Shown: piece after piece, positions 3,305 through 10,336 of the stretch
How positions within the stretch are numbered: the first letter of the stretch is position 1
Layout: every line of letters starts with the position of its first letter
Virus record (IMG/VR): IMGVR_UViG_3300031344_000005
Location: 18,816 to 82,815 of that record
Length of the DNA: 64,000 nt
Direction: 5' to 3' (one strand)
DNA from: a virus
Made by a program: the position numbers and the translations under genes
Notes under the pieces: generated by a model
Database searches by the model: none
Told to the model about the DNA's origin: nothing
Seen by the model: the letters and a program-made list of their open reading frames with translations, nothing else

Positions 3305-4177
3305 ATGGCCATCAACGACACCACGACCCACTCCAGCACAGTTCGCGACGCCTACAACACCGGCATTCTGGGCAAAGAGTCCGACGCCAGCCAGAAGGCG
3401 CCTCTGGGCGACATCCTCTCGGTGTTGCTCGACGTCGCCAACACGGCCGTCTCGGTTTCGGCCGTCACCGTCGGAACCGCCGTCACCCCTACGCTCACGC
3501 CGACGGCAACGTCCGGGGCGACTGGGATCATCCCCACGGCAACTGCCGTAGTTACGGTCTCCGCTTCGTCGGTTTCAGTTGCGACGGCGGTTTCGACGGC
3601 CGCCGTTGCCTACGCATCGCCCGATCAGACGATTCTGGCGAACCTGGCAAACGCCAACTACGTCTCGGTGAACCAGTGCGTGACCGACATCAAGGCTCTG
3701 ATCACCAAGGTCAACGCCGCAGTGGTGGACATCAGCGCGACCGATGCCAAGCTGAGTGCGGTTCTGGTGGACCTCAGCGCCGCCAAGGTCGACAACACCG
3801 CACTGGCTGCGCAGGTCAATGCCGCGCTCGTCGACATCAAGTCGCTGCGAGCCTGTATGGCGGCCACCGCCGCCAACGGCACAATGGGCGGCTGCACCGA
3901 GCCGAGCCTCACCGTGACGAGCTACCTCACCGGGACGCTGACCTACACGCCGTCATCGATCATCAGCATCCACGGCTACGGCACGACCCCGGGCGTCCTG
4001 AAGCTCATCCGCGATCCGAACCACACGCTCTCGACTGGTGAAGTTTTTTGGGATGGCTATCGCGGTCTGAAGTTCTGCGCCGCCGACCTCCTGACCACCT
4101 ACGACGCCATCTACGCCAAGGCCGACAGCTCGCAGAAGGTGAGTTGCCTCATGGCCTCGATTGCGGACATCGTCTAA
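3305..4177 (+). CDS. Putative head decoration/head fibre protein with coiled-coil segment
   Basis: GAGGAG RBS; A/T/V-rich with heptad repeats (VDIKxL..VNAA); lies before scaffold and capsid. Confidence 0.55.
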   Translation: MAINDTTTHSSTVRDAYNTGILGKESDASQKAPLGDILSVLLDVANTAVSVSAVTVGTAVTPTLTPTATSGATGIIPTATAVVTVSASSVSVATAVSTAAVAYASPDQTILANLANANYVSVNQCVTDIKALITKVNAAVVDISATDAKLSAVLVDLSAAKVDNTALAAQVNAALVDIKSLRACMAATAANGTMGGCTEPSLTVTSYLTGTLTYTPSSIISIHGYGTTPGVLKLIRDPNHTLSTGEVFWDGYRGLKFCAADLLTTYDAIYAKADSSQKVSCLMASIADIV

Positions 4178-4180
4178 CCG

Positions 4181-4371
4181 ACGGAGTCAGTAGCGCCACA
4201 TGAAACCTTTCAGCGGGACACACGCCAACCTGAGATTCACTCAGGGCGCCTCTGTCCCGCGCAACGTGGCTCGATACCTTGCGTGCCCGCCCGTTGAAGT
4301 CGTCACTCGTGACGACGGCGACGATACAGCCGGTGACCGCGACGTAAACGAGTAGCTCCGAGGAGCGAGTC
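4181..4371 (+). promoter_or_regulatory. Structured 5' leader of the scaffold gene (putative cis-regulatory RNA)
   Basis: Nested stems: GCCAC/GTGGC 4195/4266, GCGGGACA/TGTCCCGC 4213/4253, CCTGAG/CTCAGG 4229/4240, ACTCGT/ACGAGT 4305/4348, CGGC/GCCG 4316/4329, CGGAG/CTCCG 4182/4356. Confidence 0.55.
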
Positions 4372-5226
4372 ATGCCGAACGAAAACCAACCCGATCCGAA
4401 TCAACCGCCAGCCCCAGGAACACCGCCAGTAAGCACTCCGCCCGTCGGAGCCGCACCTCCCGCCCCCCAGGGCAAGAACGTCATGATCCCCCAAGCCGCA
4501 TTTGACAAGCGAGTCGAGCAGGCGAAGAGAAGCGGTCGAACCGCCTACCAAGCCGAACTCGACGCGGCTGCCGTGGCCAAGGGATACGCGAACCACACCG
4601 CACTGATGGCCCACGTCGATGGGTTGCTCACTCGACGAGCCGCCGCGCCGAAGTCACCGCAGGCCCAGCCGCAGGGCCAGGCCAGCGGATCACCTCCTCC
4701 CCCGGTCCCGCCCAAGAACCGCAATGACCGCCAGGCCATGCAGCAATTCGAGCGAGACAAGGCGAGGGCGCAGCGCGAGCGAGAACAGTCCGAACGACGA
4801 TTGGCAGACGAGCAGAAGCGACGCCGCAGGGCCGAGCGAGAACGCGATGCCATCGAAGCCCGGTCCAACCTCGAACGCATTGCCGGCCGGTGTGGCGTCA
4901 AGGACGTCGACTACGCGATCCATCTGTACACCCAGCACTGCCAAGGGAAATCCGAGGACGAGCTGAGCAAGATGGACGAAGATAAATTCTTCAAGGAGTT
5001 GCGGCAAGGACACCCCTACATCTTTGGGGAAACGGTCGTGCCCGCGACGACCGGGACCGTGGGAGCGCCCCCCGGCTCTCATGTACCGCCATCGGCCGCG
5101 GGAACCGCAGCCGCTGCCGGGCAGGCCGGAACCATCGACGTTACGAAGATGAACAAGGAACAGTACCGCGAGTATAGGCGGAATCGCGGCTACGACCGAC
5201 CGCTCCTGACAGGCAGAGCAAGCTGA
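4372..5226 (+). CDS. Capsid scaffolding protein
   Basis: Pro-rich N-terminus, charged coiled coil, HPYIFG motif and short C-terminal helix; directly upstream of the major capsid gene. Confidence 0.8.
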   Translation: MPNENQPDPNQPPAPGTPPVSTPPVGAAPPAPQGKNVMIPQAAFDKRVEQAKRSGRTAYQAELDAAAVAKGYANHTALMAHVDGLLTRRAAAPKSPQAQPQGQASGSPPPPVPPKNRNDRQAMQQFERDKARAQREREQSERRLADEQKRRRRAERERDAIEARSNLERIAGRCGVKDVDYAIHLYTQHCQGKSEDELSKMDEDKFFKELRQGHPYIFGETVVPATTGTVGAPPGSHVPPSAAGTAAAAGQAGTIDVTKMNKEQYREYRRNRGYDRPLLTGRAS

Positions 5227-5271
5227 AACTGACGGCCAACAGCCGACGAACACCAACGAAAGAGGAAATCC

Positions 5272-6687
5272 ATGGACTTCTCAGTCATCCAACAGTCGCC
5301 CCAGGTCCGAGAACTGGTGCAGCAGAACGTGCTGCAGCGGGAGTTCAAGGACGCCCTGTACCCCCGCAATCTGTTCCGCGGCGAAGCCGAGCCGGTGGAA
5401 TGGCCCGCCAACATCGGCGACAGCATGGTGTTCACCGGCCGCGGCCTGATGAAGCCGTCGACCAAGCCCTTGAAGCCCGGTGACGAGCCGCGGGCGAAGA
5501 GCGTCGAGTATGAACAGTGGTCCGCCCAGCTCCATCAGTGGGTCGGCCGCGCCCCGGACATCTCGACTGTGACCGACCTCGTGTCGATCGCGCGACTGTT
5601 CGTGAGCAACGTCCAGGCCCTCGGGTTGGATGCTGGCATGTCGCTCAACCGCATCGTACGCGATCGGTTGTACAACGCCGCGCTGAGCGGCCAGACGGTC
5701 GCGACAGTGACCGCGACTTCGGGCCACACCATCACGGTGGCGCGCTTGAACGGTTTCACGACCGCGCGGCGCCCCGACCTGTCGACTGGATCGACGGTCA
5801 AGTTCGACACCGTGTCGAGCAACAACCCGCTGATCGCCTACACCAAGCACGCCTCCGGCGCCACGCTGACCCTCACCATCACGGGCTTCACCCCGACCTA
5901 CACGGGCGACGAAACCGGGCCAGGCACCCTGACGGTTGCCGAAACCTTGAGCGGGAGCAACGTCACGGCGCGGGATCCGATCTGGACCGCTGACGCCAGC
6001 TTCATCAACCGCGCGGGCGCTGGCCTGAGCGTCGATGCCGTCACGAGCACGGGCCACGGCTTCACGTTCGACCTGTACCGCAGTTCGGTGGGCCACATGG
6101 CGGACAACAACGTGCCGAAGATGTCTGACGGCTTCTACCACGCGCACTTCAACAACTACTCCAAGGGCCAACTGTTCAGCAGCGACGAGAGCCAGCGGCT
6201 CTTGACCAGCTTGCCGGACTACTACTGGTACAAGGAGTTCACGATCGGCGAGGTGCTGGGTGGCCTGGTGTTCGAGGACACCGAGACCCCGCAGGCGTCG
6301 AACGTCCAAGGTGGCACCTCCAACGTGTACGACGGCTCCGACACCGGCGAAGCGTTCGGCGGCGAGATGTACAACTACACCAGCGACCTCATCCAACGCC
6401 CGATCTTCATCGGCGCCGAAGCGGTCTACGAATACTACCGGCCCCTCGGCGGTCTCGTGACTGAGGCCGGCGTCAACGGGCAGGTGGGTGAGTTCACCGG
6501 CCTGACCAACAACGGCATCGAGGTGAATGTGGATCGCGTGCAGGTCTACCTGCGAGCGCCCGTGAACGTGACGGGCGACATCGTGACGTCGGTGTGGAAG
6601 AGCGTGATGGATTGGCCCTGCCGAACCGACGTGCTCACCGGCGACAGCGCCAGGTTTAAGCGGTGCGTCGTGGTGGAACATATCTAG
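5272..6687 (+). CDS. Major capsid protein
   Basis: 471 aa after the scaffold; strongly biased codons; HK97-like pattern (LQREFKDALYP..FR..A; GDSMVFT; VP..SDG.YH) with a T-rich insertion domain. Confidence 0.85.
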   Translation: MDFSVIQQSPQVRELVQQNVLQREFKDALYPRNLFRGEAEPVEWPANIGDSMVFTGRGLMKPSTKPLKPGDEPRAKSVEYEQWSAQLHQWVGRAPDISTVTDLVSIARLFVSNVQALGLDAGMSLNRIVRDRLYNAALSGQTVATVTATSGHTITVARLNGFTTARRPDLSTGSTVKFDTVSSNNPLIAYTKHASGATLTLTITGFTPTYTGDETGPGTLTVAETLSGSNVTARDPIWTADASFINRAGAGLSVDAVTSTGHGFTFDLYRSSVGHMADNNVPKMSDGFYHAHFNNYSKGQLFSSDESQRLLTSLPDYYWYKEFTIGEVLGGLVFEDTETPQASNVQGGTSNVYDGSDTGEAFGGEMYNYTSDLIQRPIFIGAEAVYEYYRPLGGLVTEAGVNGQVGEFTGLTNNGIEVNVDRVQVYLRAPVNVTGDIVTSVWKSVMDWPCRTDVLTGDSARFKRCVVVEHI

Positions 6688-6691
6688 CGAA

Positions 6692-7210
6692 ACGCGCGTC
6701 ACAGCCTGAGAAGGAAATGTGCTTTTCCCGCGACTATCCCGACACGACGAGCGCACCGGCGCCACGGGATAGTCGCGCCTCAGTTTTGCCCTTCGGGGCA
6801 ATTAAAGGGCCTGGAGCTTCGGCTCGTAAACACACGCGGTCGTGTCGCTGTGTTCTGGCCCGCCGGCATGGTGGCGGCGCTTCGGTGCTTGCCCATACGA
6901 ACGTGCCGGTTCATGTCCGCGCTGGTCGCCCGATTGTGACGGGATTGCGCTTGCCCGCTTTGGTCAGTGGACATTCGCGCCCATCTATGACGGCGAACTC
7001 AACCGAGCTTTGTGCTCTGGATGAGTTGTTGCGCGGCTATCGGGAGACGCCAACCCTGGCCCTTGGCCATGGAACCGCGTCGCCCTCTGGCGGCCCCACT
7101 TCTAGAGAGTGGTCGGTGGCTTCGGCCATGACTCTGGACTCGCGCTCAAGCAGATCCCATCAGCGTGGGTTAAACGCTGTCACTGCTAGTGCCTGAGTCC
7201 GGTGCCCCGC
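6692..7210 (+). ncRNA. Large structured non-coding RNA candidate (~520 nt), family not recognised
   Basis: 13-bp perfect stem 6729-6741/6765-6777; four cUUCGg hairpins (loops at 6792, 6818, 6881, 7121); many further stems; complementary loops 6742-6748/6839-6845. Confidence 0.7.
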
Positions 7211-7236
7211 CTCTTTTTGACCAACAGGAGAATCCG

Positions 7237-7626
7237 ATGAGCCTGATGAGCGACAGAGCAGCAGCGAAGCAAAAGGATGCCAAGCCGGCGTCAGTGAAAG
7301 CTCAGGAACCGCCGGCCGCTCCGGTAGTCTCTCCTCCGCCACCCGTAGATCCGGTGGCAGCCTTCGCCGTGACGGCCGAGGAGTTCTCTGCCAAGGATGC
7401 GCCCATCGAAGCGCTCGACATCGTGGTGCCTCCGCCGGAGGCGCTAGCCCCGAAGGTCGCGCTTGCTCCTACCCGTCGCGTGCGCGTGCTGGCGGACGGC
7501 AAGGTGTTGCTGGGTGCTTGCATGCACAGATTCCGCGCAGGCAACGTTCTGGACGCCAATCAGTACGATAACCACGTGTTCGGCCAACTCCTGAAGGCCC
7601 TCAAGACGGAGCCGATCGAGAACTGA
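7237..7626 (+). CDS. Hypothetical head-associated protein
   Basis: AGGAG RBS; Pro/Ala-rich N-terminus and small C-terminal domain; first gene after the capsid gene. Confidence 0.7.
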   Translation: MSLMSDRAAAKQKDAKPASVKAQEPPAAPVVSPPPPVDPVAAFAVTAEEFSAKDAPIEALDIVVPPPEALAPKVALAPTRRVRVLADGKVLLGACMHRFRAGNVLDANQYDNHVFGQLLKALKTEPIEN

Positions 7627-7628
7627 CG

Positions 7629-8045
7629 ATGGCCCTCACGCTTTCAGAGAAGGCCCGTGTCCGCTACCACTTCGGCTATCCGAATACGTCGATGAATGCT
7701 TCTCTGTCGATTGGGATCCCGCTGGACACGCAGTTCATGTTTTTGCTGGACCGGGCGATGAACCTGATTCTGCCGGAAGCGGAAGAGACCGTGCGGATGC
7801 TGATCGGACGGCTCGACCAGACTGACGATGCGATCTTCCAATGCCAGCTCCGAATGCAGGTCAGCAAGGTCGACGGAATCGAACTGCGGGCCGACGAAAT
7901 GGATGCGCTTGAAAACGCCTACTACGGGCAGGCCACGCGCCTGGCTGACATGCTGCACACGCCGCTGTACCCGTTCTCGGCTCGATTCCAGGGCAGGGGC
8001 GGGGTGACGAGCGCGCCCCAAACCGGAATGGTCGCGAGGCACTGA
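7629..8045 (+). CDS. Putative head-tail adaptor (head completion) protein
   Basis: MALTLSEKARVRYHFGY start typical of helical adaptors; position in gene order. Confidence 0.6.
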   Translation: MALTLSEKARVRYHFGYPNTSMNASLSIGIPLDTQFMFLLDRAMNLILPEAEETVRMLIGRLDQTDDAIFQCQLRMQVSKVDGIELRADEMDALENAYYGQATRLADMLHTPLYPFSARFQGRGGVTSAPQTGMVARH

Positions 8046-8437
8046 TGTCAACGCCCATCATCGTCAACCACGCAGGAGTCGCGGTCGGGACCAGCTCGGG
8101 CGGCTCGTTCGGCTGCGGCCCGTTCGACACCAGCTTCAACGCGACCTATGCGGCGCAGAAGAGTGGCCAGGACGATGTGGTGAGCGCGACCTTGGGGGCC
8201 CCCCTCGTGCTGCCCCTGGAGAACGTGGCGGGTGTTCGGGTGCTCATCATCAGCGTGAGCGGGAACAGCGTGACGTTGCTACTCACCAGCGCGTCGGGCA
8301 CCTTGCAGAAGATTCCGCTCAGCAGCGGGGGGATCATGATTTTCCACCAGCCGACCCTGGGCGACGAGTTCACGGCGATTGAAATCGTCGGCAACGGCGC
8401 CACCGTCAGCTACTTCGTCGCGGGAGACCTCGCCTGA
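8045..8437 (+). CDS. Hypothetical virion protein (beta-rich)
   Basis: TGATG-coupled, 130 aa, within the neck cluster. Confidence 0.65.
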   Translation: MSTPIIVNHAGVAVGTSSGGSFGCGPFDTSFNATYAAQKSGQDDVVSATLGAPLVLPLENVAGVRVLIISVSGNSVTLLLTSASGTLQKIPLSSGGIMIFHQPTLGDEFTAIEIVGNGATVSYFVAGDLA

Positions 8438-9030
8438 TGCTGCAGGATCGTACCAGCCCGAGCGACGTGAAGGCCGAAGTGCCGTCCCTGTCGGGGCAGG
8501 TGCATCCCGAGCCCACCGTCAGGCGCAGCCTGGCCGATTCCCTGGTGCCCGCCATTGACCGGATCCGTCAGATCAAAACGGACCTCGGCTTTTCGCCATA
8601 TCGCGTCTTCTTGGTCCACTGGCGCTGGCCCGGCAAGCGCGGCATCGGGCGCCCGGTCGAAACCGCCCGGATCGAAATTCAGCCGACCCCTCGTGTCCAG
8701 GACATGCTCAGCACGTCCTTCGGCGTCTCGGCGTTCGGCCTGACGGAGGGCGGTGGGCTGTTTGTCGACCGCATCAGCGCACGATTCAGCGAGGCGGACC
8801 TGACGGGCCGCACGCCTGACCTGATGGACCCAGCGCGCCCGCAGACCAGCGCCAGCAACGCAGAGTTCTTCTGGGAGGTGCGGGAGACGCGCCGAACGAC
8901 GCCGCCGACGAAGCCCCGCCGCTACGCCGTGAGCGGCGTTCCAATGCTCAACAAGACGGGCCTCCACTGGCGCGTCAACCTGACCAAGCAGGACACATCC
9001 TGCGAAGTCGAGCCCGAGGTGGCGTCGTGA
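8437..9030 (+). CDS. Putative head-closure/neck protein
   Basis: Coupled gene in the neck cluster; beta-strand-like segments. Confidence 0.5.
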   Translation: MLQDRTSPSDVKAEVPSLSGQVHPEPTVRRSLADSLVPAIDRIRQIKTDLGFSPYRVFLVHWRWPGKRGIGRPVETARIEIQPTPRVQDMLSTSFGVSAFGLTEGGGLFVDRISARFSEADLTGRTPDLMDPARPQTSASNAEFFWEVRETRRTTPPTKPRRYAVSGVPMLNKTGLHWRVNLTKQDTSCEVEPEVAS

Positions 9031-9635
9031 TTCGCACGGTCCACATCCGCGACCTGGGCGGGTACGTGTCGAAGATGCCCAAGGAGCGCCACGCGGCGGC
9101 CGTGCGGGCCGTCCGCAGGTGCATGCGCAGCCGCGGGCGAGTCATCGTCAACGAGGAGATCAATGCGACGAAGCCACGGCCGCCCGTCGACCGCCGCACC
9201 TACGCGAACTCCTGGGAGACGCTAGCGATCGACGATGGCTGCCGCATCTATTCGACAGATCCCAAGGCGTCCGTCATCGACCGCGGCCGACGTCCTGGCT
9301 TCGGAATCGGCCGGGCCGGCATCGAGGCCCTGATGGGCTGGGTCCACCGGCACGGCATGGATACCGTGAGCCACCCGGCAGCCCAGCGAGTTTCTCAGCG
9401 GCAGATGTTGCAGCGGGCACTCGGTCAGCGCGTGATGACCCTCAGAGCCGCCAAGAGCGAACAGGTGGGAGCGGCTGCCCGTTCCATCGCGTACGCCATC
9501 GCGGCCGCCATCAAGAAGCGCGGTCTGTGGATGCCCAAGGGTCTGCAGGTATTCGCTCGCGCCAGCAAGCGCATCGTCGAGGAGTGCCGAACGGCCGTTC
9601 GGCGGGCTATCGCGGGCGCTGAGGGGGGCAACTGA
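9027..9635 (+). CDS. Putative neck/tail completion protein (HK97 gp10-like)
   Basis: Basic; PPVDRRTYANSW, GRRPG, AYAIAAAIKKRG motifs. Confidence 0.6.
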   Translation: MIRTVHIRDLGGYVSKMPKERHAAAVRAVRRCMRSRGRVIVNEEINATKPRPPVDRRTYANSWETLAIDDGCRIYSTDPKASVIDRGRRPGFGIGRAGIEALMGWVHRHGMDTVSHPAAQRVSQRQMLQRALGQRVMTLRAAKSEQVGAAARSIAYAIAAAIKKRGLWMPKGLQVFARASKRIVEECRTAVRRAIAGAEGGN

Positions 9636-10336
9636 TGTACGCCTCCCAATTCTTTCCCTTGGCCATCTGCGACGTGCGGGACGCCTGCGCGTTGGCTCTC
9701 AGTCGGGTCATCGAGGCCATTGACACTACGATTGGCGGCCAGCGCATCAAGTTCAACCACGTGTTCGATGAGTGGCCGACTCAGGACGACAAGTACGACC
9801 CACCGGCCGCCTGCGTGATCGCACCTCCCGAGTGGGAATACTCGGACAGCGGCGAGCCGAAGCTGTTGGAGGACACGGTTCAAAGCTTCACTACGGGCGC
9901 GGATGACCCGCCGTCCTACGGACTCTACAAGACGGCCGAAATGCTGGACCAGTTCGGGCTGCAGATTCGGGCAGGAAGCGCCGCCATGCGGTCCATGCTG
10001 AAGCTGGCCGTCGAGGACGCCTTTCAGCTTCGCGAAGCCGCCATGTACCCCCTGAGACAGCGGTACGGCCTGCAGTTGGATCTACCTGAGTATTGGGGAC
10101 TGACCGCACGCGCATCGCTGCTCAAGGGCAGCAACACCGATTCCGAGGACGCGGCCATGCGAAATCAGCGCGAGGCTTCGTTCGTGATTTCCATGCAGGC
10201 CCCCAAGGTGCAGCTCATGGCCATCTGGCCGATGAGCATCACCGTTACCGAGAAGACCTTCACGGGCGATGGGCGGCTCATCAATAGCGCCACCATCAAG
10301 CCCAGCGACGATCCGCCAACCATGACCAGGAGCTAA
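9635..10336 (+). CDS. Putative tail terminator protein
   Basis: Directly upstream of the sheath; VFDEWP...YDPPAACVI. Confidence 0.5.
   Translation: MYASQFFPLAICDVRDACALALSRVIEAIDTTIGGQRIKFNHVFDEWPTQDDKYDPPAACVIAPPEWEYSDSGEPKLLEDTVQSFTTGADDPPSYGLYKTAEMLDQFGLQIRAGSAAMRSMLKLAVEDAFQLREAAMYPLRQRYGLQLDLPEYWGLTARASLLKGSNTDSEDAAMRNQREASFVISMQAPKVQLMAIWPMSITVTEKTFTGDGRLINSATIKPSDDPPTMTRS

What the first reader, a model, noticed from the sequence alone, without database searches (positions are those of the whole stretch)
6692..7210. ~520-nt densely folded RNA with multiple pseudoknots directly after the major capsid gene
Seen in sequence: the 550-bp gap between the capsid stop (6687) and the next RBS-bearing gene (7237) is almost fully tiled with helices. 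These include CTGAG/CTCAG (6706/6779) closing a junction with GGAAA/TTTCC and a perfect 13-bp stem (6729-6741/6765-6777), and four cUUCGg tetraloop hairpins (TTGCCC-ttcg-GGGCAA 6786, GAGC-ttcg-GCTC 6814, GCGC-ttcg-GTGC 6877, TGGC-ttcg-GCCA 7117). Further stems: GGGCC/GGCCC, AACACA/TGTGTT, GCCGGCA/TGCCGGT, ATGTCC/GGACAT, AACTCA/TGAGTT, GACGC/GCGTC, GGACTC/GAGTCC, CAGCGT/ACGCTG. Loops are complementary to distant segments: ACACGAC 6742-6748 with loop GTCGTGT 6839-6845 (kissing loops), CGTCACA 6697-6703 with TGTGACG 6935-6941, GCACCGG 6753-6759 with CCGGTGC 7199-7205, AACCC 7052-7056 with loop GGGTT 7167-7171. UUCG loops and G-U pairs read correctly on the + strand, implying RNA-level selection. 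Established: large phage-borne ncRNAs (GOLLD, ROOL) and phi29 pRNA exist. I could not match this one to them, or to RNase P, tmRNA or group I/II introns. Inference: a new large late-expressed RNA, possibly a self-assembling or capsid-associated RNA, ribozyme or decoy.
Basis: partly seen in the sequence, partly recalled or inferred. Interest (0 to 1): 0.9.

Follow-up and report, generated by a model that had tools for sequence, protein, structure and literature searches.

The report
New large folded RNA after capsid gene
The gap behind this uncultured phage's major capsid gene encodes a large, intricately folded RNA that matches no catalogued family, is shared by dozens of related phages, and carries a reading frame that is kept open although no conserved protein is made.

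Summary
The 549-nt gap between the major head gene (stop 6687) and the next gene (ATG 7237) encodes a real, conserved structured RNA on the + strand. In 20 distinct homologues (13 lineages of uncultured phages) a consensus of 23 helices and 151 pairs is 93.6% paired. 91 pairs show compensatory double changes, and 0 of 500 shuffles match.

All four UUCG hairpins, the 13-bp stem and 7 of 8 further stems are in the consensus. Of four proposed pseudoknots, only the loop-loop pair 6742-48/6839-45 is conserved, and it is invariant, so untestable.

No Rfam family matches. ORF 6663-7196 is not a conserved protein (pN/pS 1.02), yet its frame is kept free of stops (0 against 16 and 22 stop columns).

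Contigs of relatives stand in four metatranscriptomes. A 45-nt internal-loop hairpin (7040-7087), the long-range helix 7089-93/7207-11 and the U-run recur in a sister phage clade.

Function is untested. I favour a branched terminator and stable 3' RNA of the capsid message that ribosomes can read across. This scan reported the same RNA family earlier on three other genomes.

The parts
5272..6687 (+). major head (capsid) gene, 471 aa; the RNA begins right after its stop
   Evidence: ORF. PHROG phrog_1357 'major head protein', E 1.7e-7. 26-27% identical to the annotated major capsid proteins of Streptomyces phage Kromp, Komagataeibacter phiKX1 and Ralstonia phages.
6688..6728 (+). poorly conserved leader holding the in-frame ATG 6717-6719
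   Evidence: Alignment A4. An ATG or GTG stands at the homologous place, in the open frame, in 12 of 13 lineages and in L148, L149 and L151. No conserved Shine-Dalgarno (read).
6717..7196 (+). stop-free reading frame through the RNA (part of ORF 6663-7196); no conserved protein
   Evidence: 0 stop columns in this frame against 16 and 22 in the other two frames, 12 lineages. pN/pS 1.02. No Pfam or PHROG match.
6729..6777 (+). 5' long hairpin (H1, H2) with apical ACACGA 6743-6748
   Evidence: H1 has 5 of 9 pairs and H2 has 4 of 8 pairs with double changes. CACG 6743-6746 is invariant in 20 of 20 sequences.
6786..6801 (+). UUCG hairpin 1 (H3)
   Evidence: 97.5% paired, 3 of 6 pairs with double changes.
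6807..6861 (+). three-way domain (H4, H5 with UUCG, H6) bearing the invariant loop UCGUGUCGC 6840-6848
   Evidence: H4 99.2%, H5 97.6%, H6 96.5% paired. Invariant columns.
6863..6909 (+). long hairpin (H7-H9) with UUCG loop and invariant AUACGAAC 6895-6902
   Evidence: H7 98.0%, H9 96.7% paired; 4 and 5 pairs with double changes. Covariance model R1 of 6784-6913.
6916..7037 (+). branched middle domain (H10-H14)
   Evidence: H10 6 of 7, H11 4 of 5, H13 8 of 11 and H14 8 of 10 pairs with double changes. Partly deleted in L067.
7040..7087 (+). core motif: closing stem, 4x4 internal loop (AAAC/AACC in most copies; CAAC/AACC here), helix CCUG/CA(Y)GG with a bulged pyrimidine, variable hairpin (H15-H17)
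   Evidence: The only domain found by nhmmer in the sister clade (11 of 38 gaps). 41 distinct copies aligned (A7). 92.1% paired, 100 double-change cells against 29.6 in shuffles, 0 of 500 shuffles as high.
7089..7211 (+). 3' domain closed by the long-range helix GGCGG 7089-7093 / CCGCC 7207-7211 (H18), with H19, the UUCG hairpin H20 and H21-H23
   Evidence: H18 100% paired (CG:7, UA:8, UG:2 at its middle pair); H19 4 of 6, H21 10 of 13 and H23 5 of 6 pairs with double changes.
7212..7218 (+). U-run UCUUUUU directly after H18
   Evidence: Conserved in the window clade. A similar GC-rich strand plus U-run precedes the next gene in several sister-clade gaps (read by eye).
7226..7626 (+). Shine-Dalgarno AGGAG 7226-7230 and the next gene (ATG 7237, 129 aa, no family)
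   Evidence: Homologues follow the RNA in relatives.

Best explanation
The gap is the gene of a roughly 520-nt, multi-domain structured RNA. It is read on the + strand as the tail of the major-capsid transcript.

Shown:
- The fold, with 23 helices.
- The strand.
- Vertical conservation directly behind one capsid family.
- A family-wide core made of the 7040-7087 internal-loop hairpin, the long-range helix 7089-93/7207-11 that follows it, and a U-run just before the next gene's ribosome-binding site.
- A reading frame from a conserved ATG (6717) that is kept free of stops without any constraint on the peptide.

Inferred mechanism:
- The long-range helix plus U-run acts as a branched intrinsic terminator or attenuator behind the capsid gene.
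- Transcripts that stop there leave a compact, nuclease-resistant 3' RNA that accumulates.
- Ribosomes that restart after the capsid stop codon read the open frame across the element, melt it and carry expression into the head-completion genes. This sets the ratio of capsid to downstream proteins.
- The invariant internal loop of 7040-7087 is the likely docking site of an unknown partner, protein or RNA. Whether the accumulated RNA also acts in trans is open.
For: Fold:
- 151 pairs in 23 helices, 93.6% paired, 91 pairs with double changes, 0 of 500 shuffles as high. Slid controls give 23-30 pairs and 37-43% paired.
- An independent RNAalifold run on 15 sequences gave 47 of 110 pairs with double changes.

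Strand and transcription:
- 188 G-U cells against 42 A-C cells.
- No promoter of its own was found: 0 sigma-70-like sites in 4000-9000, and no sigma-54-like site between 1992 and 11077.

Place:
- All 14 of the 17 first loci that reach beyond the capsid gene carry it.
- All further members lie right after a capsid homologue.

Terminator-like end:
- H18 is 100% paired with CG/UA exchange at its middle pair.
- The U-run follows it directly.
- Helix and U-run recur with other letters in sister-clade gaps. I read this by eye and did not count it.

Open frame:
- 0 stop columns against 16 and 22 in the other frames, 24 of those seen in one lineage only.
- All 17 full-length sequences are open for 149-183 codons.
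- The frame ends on ATGA with the next gene's start in L003, L004, L009 and L063, on TAGATG in L072, and about 9 nt before the start in L012, L055 and L069.
- In the sister clade the frame spans at least 85% of the gap in 18 of 31 motif-bearing gaps.

RNA libraries:
- Contigs of relatives cover 6799-7003 and 7023-7132 in X20 (word depth 208 and 202), 6799-6983 in X21 and 6804-7143 in X24.
- Contigs laid on the capsid gene in X20 have depth 3.1-5.2.
- Adapter letters abut 6799, 6799, 6804 and 6823 in three runs of three studies.
Against: - No experiment or raw-read data shows a 3' end at the U-run. The tool warns that contig depth cannot rank genes and that holders were chosen with this stretch.
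- A 5-bp closing helix around a 113-nt branched insert is not a textbook terminator, and the simple scan did not call it.
- In most lineages the open frame's stop lies beyond the U-run. A terminated transcript would then carry a frame without a stop.
- The frame ends early in the window (7196), in L067 and L065, and at 76% of the gap in L148 and L149.
- The frame is broken (65% of the gap or less) in 6 of 31 motif-bearing sister gaps and in 12 of 38 sister gaps overall. Only 2 of 38 beat shuffles at P <= 0.05 singly.
- No conserved Shine-Dalgarno precedes the ATG.
- Twenty-three helices with invariant loops are far more than a terminator or stabiliser needs, which points to a further role.
- 13 of 57 sister-clade loci have only 25-149 nt after the capsid gene, so the element is dispensable.
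Confidence: 0.45

Rival explanations
1. A trans-acting RNA that assembles with itself or with the virion, in the manner of ROOL, GOLLD or phi29 pRNA. The two invariant complementary loops (ACACGA 6743-48 and UCGUGU 6840-45) would pair between molecules, and the RNA would build up late as an RNA-only or capsid-bound particle.
For: - Size and ornateness: 23 helices.
- Phage origin and late-operon position.
- Presence in four metatranscriptomes.
- Loop-loop complementarity kept in 20 of 20 sequences at its 4-bp core, 87.1% paired over 7 bp.
- In ROOL, a contact first predicted as tertiary turned out to be an intermolecular kissing loop (passages of 10.1101/2024.12.08.627333).
Against: - No covariance-model match to ROOL, GOLLD or pRNA.
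- The two loops and their domains are not found in the sister clade (0 of 38 gaps for domains 1 and 2-3). They therefore cannot be the family's core function.
- The same loop can instead pair with the invariant AUACGA 6895-6900.
- Self-assembly does not explain the open frame or the U-run.
- Nothing was tested physically.
Confidence: 0.25
2. A sensor-controlled attenuator. The 7040-7087 internal-loop hairpin binds a protein or small molecule, and this decides whether the adjacent helix 7089-93/7207-11 and U-run form. That would switch read-through into the head-completion and tail genes.
For: - The motif, the helix that starts 2 nt after it and the U-run are the parts shared by both clades.
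- The eight internal-loop letters are invariant or nearly so in 41 copies, while both flanking stems covary.
Against: - No known aptamer or protein-binding family matches.
- No alternative, mutually exclusive pairing was found or tested.
- About 110 nt of branched RNA lie inside the supposed terminator.
- The other 350 nt of conserved structure stay unexplained.
Confidence: 0.15
3. ORF 6663-7196 is a real gene for a basic, disordered protein in which only length and composition matter. The RNA structure would be secondary, for example for message stability.
For: - Frame kept open in all 17 full-length sequences, with 0 stop columns against 16 and 22.
- Conserved in-frame ATG or GTG in 12 of 13 lineages.
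- Frame-restoring pairs of 1-nt indels in L003, L012 and L055.
- ATGA overlap with the next gene in four lineages.
Against: - pN/pS is 1.02, higher than in the two other frames (0.91, 0.84) and against 0.48 for the capsid gene.
- Substitutions are not concentrated at third positions: 867/851/783 against 1813/1483/2834 in the capsid gene.
- Whole segments are read in a different phase in different lineages.
- No Pfam or PHROG family.
- No conserved ribosome-binding site.
- The compensatory changes in 91 pairs cannot come from coding.
Confidence: 0.07
4. A ribozyme or a mobile, intron-like RNA element lodged behind the capsid gene.
For: - Size and complexity.
- Presence or absence varies among sister-clade phages (13 of 57 loci lack a long gap).
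- An HNH endonuclease gene sits beside it in L072.
Against: - No match to group I, group II or any self-cleaving family, even at E <= 10.
- The capsid gene is complete without splicing: it aligns to residue 470-471 of relatives.
- RNA identity tracks capsid identity, as expected for vertical descent.
- It was never found in another context: 0 of 15 genome pattern hits and 0 of 3 odd viral hits are real.
Confidence: 0.05

Closest known systems
ROOL (Rfam RF03087) and GOLLD (RF01998), large ornate RNAs of phages and prophages
   Same: Hundreds of nucleotides long, with many helices and conserved loops. Encoded by phages, function unknown, detectable as abundant RNA. In ROOL, conserved loop-loop pairs proved to be contacts between molecules (passages read).
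   Different: No covariance-model match. Not beside tRNA genes (0 tRNA genes in the 64-kb window); it sits inside the late structural operon, right after the capsid stop. Loops are mostly UUCG. It has a stop-free frame and ends in a helix plus U-run.
Mu-gpT-DE motif (conserved RNA downstream of Mu-like major head genes; recalled from Weinberg et al. 2017, of which I saw only the search listing; the name itself turned up in one other paper's listing)
   Same: A conserved RNA structure placed immediately downstream of a major head gene.
   Different: As I recall it is a small motif, and it is held in Rfam. No Rfam family matched here. This RNA is about 520 nt with 23 helices.
T7 terminator T-phi behind gene 10 (major capsid); recalled, no call
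   Same: A transcription stop right after the major capsid gene raises capsid message over downstream genes, with partial read-through.
   Different: T-phi is a simple hairpin. Here the helix before the U-run closes a 113-nt branched domain, and a further 400 nt of conserved RNA precede it. Termination is not shown.
phi29 pRNA (recalled; in Rfam, no match)
   Different: pRNA is far shorter, has a different fold, and is encoded elsewhere in its genome. No homology. The loops here are confined to one clade.
DRT2 defence ncRNA with a hidden stop-free frame (passages of 10.64898/2026.09.22.753630)
   Same: A structured non-coding RNA in which a reading frame without stops is conserved.
   Different: DRT2 needs its reverse transcriptase, and no RVT_1 match exists in the 82,815-nt phage record. 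DRT2 is a host defence system, and its frame arises by rolling-circle copying.

Membership tests
ROOL (RF03087) / GOLLD (RF01998) | Match to the family's covariance model | tested here: not met
   0 matches at gathering score in the window and in 18 relatives. At E <= 10 in 6500-7400 the only match is a 25-nt chance hit outside the element.
ROOL (RF03087) / GOLLD (RF01998) | Usual place beside tRNA genes in phages and prophages (passages) | tested here: not met
   ARAGORN finds 0 tRNA genes in the 64-kb window. The RNA lies between the capsid and head-completion genes.
ROOL (RF03087) / GOLLD (RF01998) | Homo-oligomeric RNA-only cage | not testable with these tools
   Needs native gels, mass photometry or cryo-EM of the transcript.
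Group I / group II introns | Match to the intron models, and a host gene split into exons | tested here: not met
   No Rfam match, even at E <= 10. The capsid protein aligns over residues 1-471 with relatives and ends at a stop in all of them.
Protein-coding gene (ORF 6663-7196) | Open frame with a start codon, kept in relatives | tested here: met
   Open for 149-183 codons in 17 of 17 full-length sequences. 0 stop columns against 16 and 22. ATG or GTG kept in 12 of 13 lineages.
Protein-coding gene (ORF 6663-7196) | Purifying selection on the peptide (third-position excess, pN/pS below 1) | tested here: not met
   Codon-position differences 867/851/783. pN/pS 1.02. Capsid control 1813/1483/2834 and 0.48.
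Protein-coding gene (ORF 6663-7196) | Membership in a protein family | tested here: not met
   No Pfam or PHROG match at E <= 0.01.
Intrinsic (Rho-independent) terminator | GC-rich helix directly followed by a U-run on the transcribed strand | tested here: inconclusive
   GGCGG/CCGCC (H18; 100% paired, covarying) is followed at once by UCUUUUU. However, the helix has 5 pairs and encloses 113 nt, and the simple scan does not report it.
Intrinsic (Rho-independent) terminator | RNA 3' ends at the U-run | not testable with these tools
   Only contigs were available. By my reckoning one contig of X20 reaches about 7210, which is no proof of an end.
tRNA / tmRNA | Recognised by ARAGORN | tested here: not met
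   0 genes.
Reverse-transcriptase-templating ncRNA (DRT2-like, retron) | A reverse transcriptase encoded with it | tested here: not met
   No RVT_1 (PF00078) match at E <= 0.01 in the whole 82,815-nt record. The control genomes gave matches.

The most novel reading that the evidence does not exclude
The element is a dual-state RNA of a kind not yet described. As part of the late message, ribosomes read across it through a frame that exists only to be read, and this suppresses a branched terminator. When it is not translated it folds, ends the capsid transcript and builds up as a compact particle. That particle's invariant loops and internal loop dock a partner, which could be another copy of itself, the assembling head or a host factor. 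Translation, transcription termination and a trans-acting RNA would then be coupled in one 520-nt module that sets the stoichiometry of head assembly.
Probability: 0.2. Interest if true: 0.9.

Novelty: new variant of a known kind. Interest (0 to 1): 0.75.

Why it matters
Large, elaborately folded RNAs are rare, and each one found so far (ribosome, RNase P, introns, and more recently the ROOL, GOLLD and OLE assemblies) has taught new RNA biology.

This family differs from those in several ways:
- It is abundant in peat, wetland and freshwater RNA data.
- It belongs to a whole group of uncultured soil phages.
- It sits at the one place in a phage genome where the most heavily expressed gene ends.
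- It combines strong structural selection with selection for an open frame that encodes nothing conserved.

If the proposed coupling holds, it would be a new way for a virus to set the ratio of capsid to connector proteins. The 45-nt core hairpin would be a new recognition motif. The transcript is short enough for direct cryo-EM, probing and reporter tests.

Tried and rejected
Known RNA families. Rfam 15 gave nothing at gathering score (window; 18 relatives). At E <= 10 over 6500-7400 there was only a 25-nt lncRNA chance hit at 7303-7327.

Capsid extension by frameshift or read-through. Rejected: the open frame stands at -1, +1 or 0 relative to the capsid frame in different lineages, and even among close relatives such as L051 and L004.

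Prophage copies in bacterial genomes. The pattern scan of genome contigs gave 15 stretches, and 0 of 15 match the nhmmer profile. No host could therefore be named.

Metagenome scan by capsid alignment. It returned only 9 loci.

Pattern hits L062, L068 and L074 lie in coding DNA and are chance. The 13 core-motif pattern hits without a capsid gene lack the hairpin.

Own promoter. No sigma-70-like site in 4000-9000. Sigma-54-like pattern: 28 matches in the window against 34 expected, none near the element. The one 'terminator-like' site (6836-6848) is the invariant-loop hairpin H6 and has no real U-run.

Reverse transcriptase: none. tRNA or tmRNA: none.

Distant cultured relatives (Kromp, phiKX1, Hyacinthe) have 58, 0 and 52 nt after the capsid gene.

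Sister clade. nhmmer profiles of domains 1, 2-3, 4 and 6 found 0 of 38 gaps. Model R1 found only L135 (36 bits), L079 (22.4) and L097 (17.0) in the expected place.

GGG-loop hairpin scan. 18 of 36 gaps against 13 of 35 control stretches, so the crude criterion does not discriminate. A stricter 'CCC, 2-3 nt, stem, GGGU/A loop' form is seen in 12 of 36 by eye.

Read laying. 7283-8538 had no cover in 4 of 4 runs, and the capsid gene had little. The tool says a part without cover is no finding, and flanks of relatives may fall under the 80% likeness limit. I therefore draw nothing from the missing cover. Runs with small shares that I did not lay are not used for habitat.

Papers:
- Searches found no description of this RNA.
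- Fremin et al. 2023 (PMC10690425, passages read) list IMG/VR candidates of 29-151 nt only. Their supplementary tables, which I could not open, might hold pieces of this RNA.
Full report
**Setting**

The window is bases 18816-82815 of an 82,815-nt IMG/VR virus record, and the element occurs once in it. ORF 5272-6687 is the major head gene. It matches PHROG phrog_1357 at E 1.7e-7 and is 26-27% identical to the annotated capsid proteins of Streptomyces phage Kromp, Komagataeibacter phages phiKX1/2 and four Ralstonia phage records, 7 records in all. A probable scaffold gene lies upstream at 4372-5226. The next gene starts at ATG 7237 behind AGGAG. The 549 nt between them are the finding.

**Is it a known RNA?**

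It is not. Rfam 15 gives no match at gathering score in the whole window or in 18 related loci. At E <= 10 over 6500-7400 the only match is a 25-nt chance hit at 7303-7327, outside the element. ARAGORN finds no tRNA or tmRNA.

**Is the fold more than chance?**

Folding energy alone is a weak guide. The z-score is -2.73 on the + strand (1 of 100 shuffles as good) and -3.38 on the - strand. The case rests on homologues.

- A capsid-based scan of IMG/VR gave 17 loci with 58-89% protein identity. All 14 that extend beyond the capsid gene carry the gap sequence at 70.6-84.6% nucleotide identity. The other three loci end inside the capsid gene.
- Pattern scans and a metagenome scan added more. After removing duplicates I had 20 distinct sequences in 13 lineages (A4).
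- Later scans added three more lineages (L148/155, L149/150, L151/153).
- By my own tally of the contig names, at least 34 IMG/VR contigs besides the window's own record carry the full-type RNA.

RNAalifold on the first 15 sequences predicted 110 pairs, 47 with compensatory double changes. On A4 I tested a consensus of 151 pairs in 23 helices:

| Measure | Consensus | Controls |
|---|---|---|
| Cells paired | 93.6% | 81.8% in column shuffles; 37-43% with 3' partners slid by 1-3 columns |
| Pairs with double changes | 91 | 47.2 in shuffles; 23-30 slid |
| Cells with double changes | 333 | 86.9 in shuffles |
| Shuffles as high | 0 of 500 on all five measures | |

G-U cells number 188 against 42 A-C cells, so the + strand is the one that folds.

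Confirmed:
- the 13-bp stem;
- all four UUCG hairpins;
- seven of eight further stems.

Not confirmed:
- ATGTCC/GGACAT is not conserved.
- The two leader stems lie in unalignable sequence and were not tested.

Pseudoknots:
- Three of the four do not hold: 48.0%, 65.5% and 74.1% of cells paired, and two of them use strands already in nested helices.
- The loop-loop pair ACACGAC/GTCGTGT is kept (87.1% paired, with its CACG/CGTG core invariant in 20 of 20). Because it never varies, covariation cannot test it.
- The same loop could also pair with the invariant AUACGA at 6895-6900.
- The loop GGG of H23 has a nearer possible partner, the CCC just upstream of its stem (7155-7157). That would make a small H-type pseudoknot. 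A like module appears by eye in 12 of 36 sister-clade gaps.

**The open frame**

There is no coding signal:
- Substitutions fall 867/851/783 on codon positions 1/2/3, against 1813/1483/2834 in the capsid gene.
- pN/pS is 1.02 in this frame, 0.91 and 0.84 in the other two, and 0.48 in the capsid gene.
- Segments are read in different phases in different lineages, because 1-nt indels come in frame-restoring pairs.
- No protein family matches.

Yet the frame is kept open:
- All 17 full-length sequences are free of stops for 149-183 codons.
- Over alignment columns 36-500 in 12 lineages, this frame has 0 stop columns. The other two frames have 16 and 22, with 43 and 52 occurrences, and 24 of those columns are confined to one lineage. 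If stops arose alike in all frames, about 12 lineage-specific ones would be expected here. That estimate is my own arithmetic.
- An ATG or GTG stands in frame at the same place (6717 in the window) in 12 of 13 lineages. The exception is L072, where an HNH endonuclease gene fills the leader.
- The frame ends on ATGA with the next gene's start in four lineages, on TAGATG in one, about 9 nt before the start in three, and earlier in the window, L067 and L065. In L001 it runs on.
- Its phase relative to the capsid gene varies (-1, +1, 0). It is therefore not a recoded capsid extension.

Limits on this result:
- Singly, the frames beat dinucleotide shuffles only at P 0.012-0.092.
- L148 and L149 end the frame at 76% of the gap.
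- There is no conserved Shine-Dalgarno.

**A wider family and its core**

Capsid relatives at 42-50% identity form a large sister clade: 405 proteins at E <= 1e-10, and 80 loci fetched.

- Of 57 sister loci that I could measure, 13 have only 25-149 nt after the capsid gene, 43 have 223-743 nt, and 1 was mis-called. Start sites were called by rule and checked by eye for L105, L099 and L121.
- The long gaps are very diverse. There are 38 distinct sequences, mostly singletons by blastn.
- Only one domain of the window RNA, 7040-7087, is recognisable in them: 11 of 38 gaps. Domains 1, 2-3, 4 and 6 are found in 0 of 38.

The shared domain is a hairpin. It has a covarying closing stem, a 4x4 internal loop (AAAC/AACC), a short helix CCUG/CA(Y)GG with a bulged pyrimidine, and a variable distal stem-loop. 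A pattern for it finds 63 IMG/VR stretches:
- 44 lie behind a capsid homologue, 38 of them at 180-421 nt and 6 at 760-859 nt.
- 6 are too near the locus start to tell.
- 13 have no capsid gene and no hairpin, and are chance.

Forty-one distinct copies give 92.1% paired cells and 100 double-change cells against 29.6 in shuffles, with 0 of 500 shuffles as high.

Right after this hairpin comes the 5' strand of the long-range helix. Its partner lies just before a U-run and the next gene's ribosome-binding site. In sister gaps the same arrangement appears with other letters, for example GGUGGC/GCCACC, GGCAGC/GCUGCC and GAUGGC/GCCGUC. I read this by eye and did not count it.

The open frame spans at least 85% of the gap in 18 of 31 distinct motif-bearing sister gaps, and 65% or less in 6. 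Over all 38 sister gaps the figures are 20 and 12, and only 2 beat shuffles singly at P <= 0.05.

**RNA data**

Of 24 public runs that hold words of 6600-7300, 6 are RNA libraries. I laid four of them, from freshwater, peat, peat and wetland samples in four studies, at 80% likeness on 4300-9000. All are contigs of relatives, not of this phage.

- They cover 6810-7089 (X10), 6799-7003 and 7023-7132 (X20; word depth 208 and 202), 6799-6983 (X21; 9.5) and 6804-7143 (X24; 13.4).
- Contigs laid on the capsid gene in X20 have depth 3.1-5.2 and are mostly under 90% alike.
- Sequencing-adapter letters abut the contigs at 6799, 6799, 6804 and 6823. This fits a very frequent fragment end just 3' of the first UUCG loop: a true 5' end, a cleavage hot spot or a reverse-transcription stop.
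- The tool warns that contig depth cannot rank genes and that these runs were found with this very stretch. I take this as a hint that the RNA accumulates, not as proof.

**Reading**

Shown:
- a new, conserved, + strand structured RNA family tied to one capsid lineage;
- a family-wide core (internal-loop hairpin, long-range helix, U-run);
- clade-specific outer domains;
- dispensability in some relatives;
- selection for an open frame without selection on the peptide.

Inferred: the helix and U-run end a share of capsid transcripts and leave a stable 3' RNA, while ribosomes restarting after the capsid stop read across the element and couple into the next gene. I give this 0.45.

Rivals:
- a self-assembling or virion-bound RNA, 0.25;
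- a sensor-controlled attenuator built on the core hairpin, 0.15;
- a real gene for a disordered basic protein, 0.07;
- a ribozyme or mobile element, 0.05.

The first two rivals do not exclude the main reading.

**Prior work**

Four full-text searches found no description of this RNA. Three earlier reports of this scan on other genomes describe the same family and reached the same main points: an uncatalogued fold, abundance in RNA data and an open frame. I had obtained those results before reading them.

Noticed in passing
L072:9166-9702: In one relative, a 178-aa ORF with HNH-endonuclease-like cysteine and histidine motifs (read by eye, not scanned) sits between the capsid stop and the RNA. 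It replaces the leader and its ATG. The RNA's open frame there runs on upstream, in another phase of that gene (ORF 9254-10213).
   Followed up: partly
L077-L156 (sister clade), region after the capsid gene: There is a presence/absence pattern. 13 of 57 loci have 25-149 nt after the capsid gene and 43 have 223-743 nt. Many long gaps lack the core motif (27 of 38 distinct by nhmmer) and may hold other, unrelated RNAs.
   Followed up: partly
L167, L171, L191, L209 (motif 796 nt after the capsid gene); L082, L090, L120, L152: Some relatives have an extra 0.7-1.7 kb between the capsid gene and the connector-like gene. In L167 and L171 a 735-nt open stretch precedes the core motif. These are probably inserted genes. 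I did not examine them.
   Followed up: no
window 7155-7179: CCC, 3 nt, a 6-bp stem and a GGGUUAA loop could form a compact H-type pseudoknot. The same layout recurs in 12 of 36 sister-clade gaps by eye.
   Followed up: partly
window 6840-6845, 6743-6748, 6895-6900: The invariant loop UCGUGU has two possible invariant partners, ACACGA and AUACGA. This could be a switch, or contacts within and between molecules.
   Followed up: partly
window 6799-6823: Illumina adapter letters are fused to metatranscriptome contigs of relatives at 6799, 6799, 6804 and 6823 in three runs of three studies (table 7).
   Followed up: no
window 5281-6801, - strand: A 506-aa ORF lies opposite the capsid gene. I take it for a GC-rich shadow frame and did not test it.
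   Followed up: no
window 7237-7626: The gene after the RNA (129 aa) matches no Pfam or PHROG family and is poorly conserved (30-57% identity over parts). The gene after that one (7629-8045) is well conserved across both clades.
   Followed up: no
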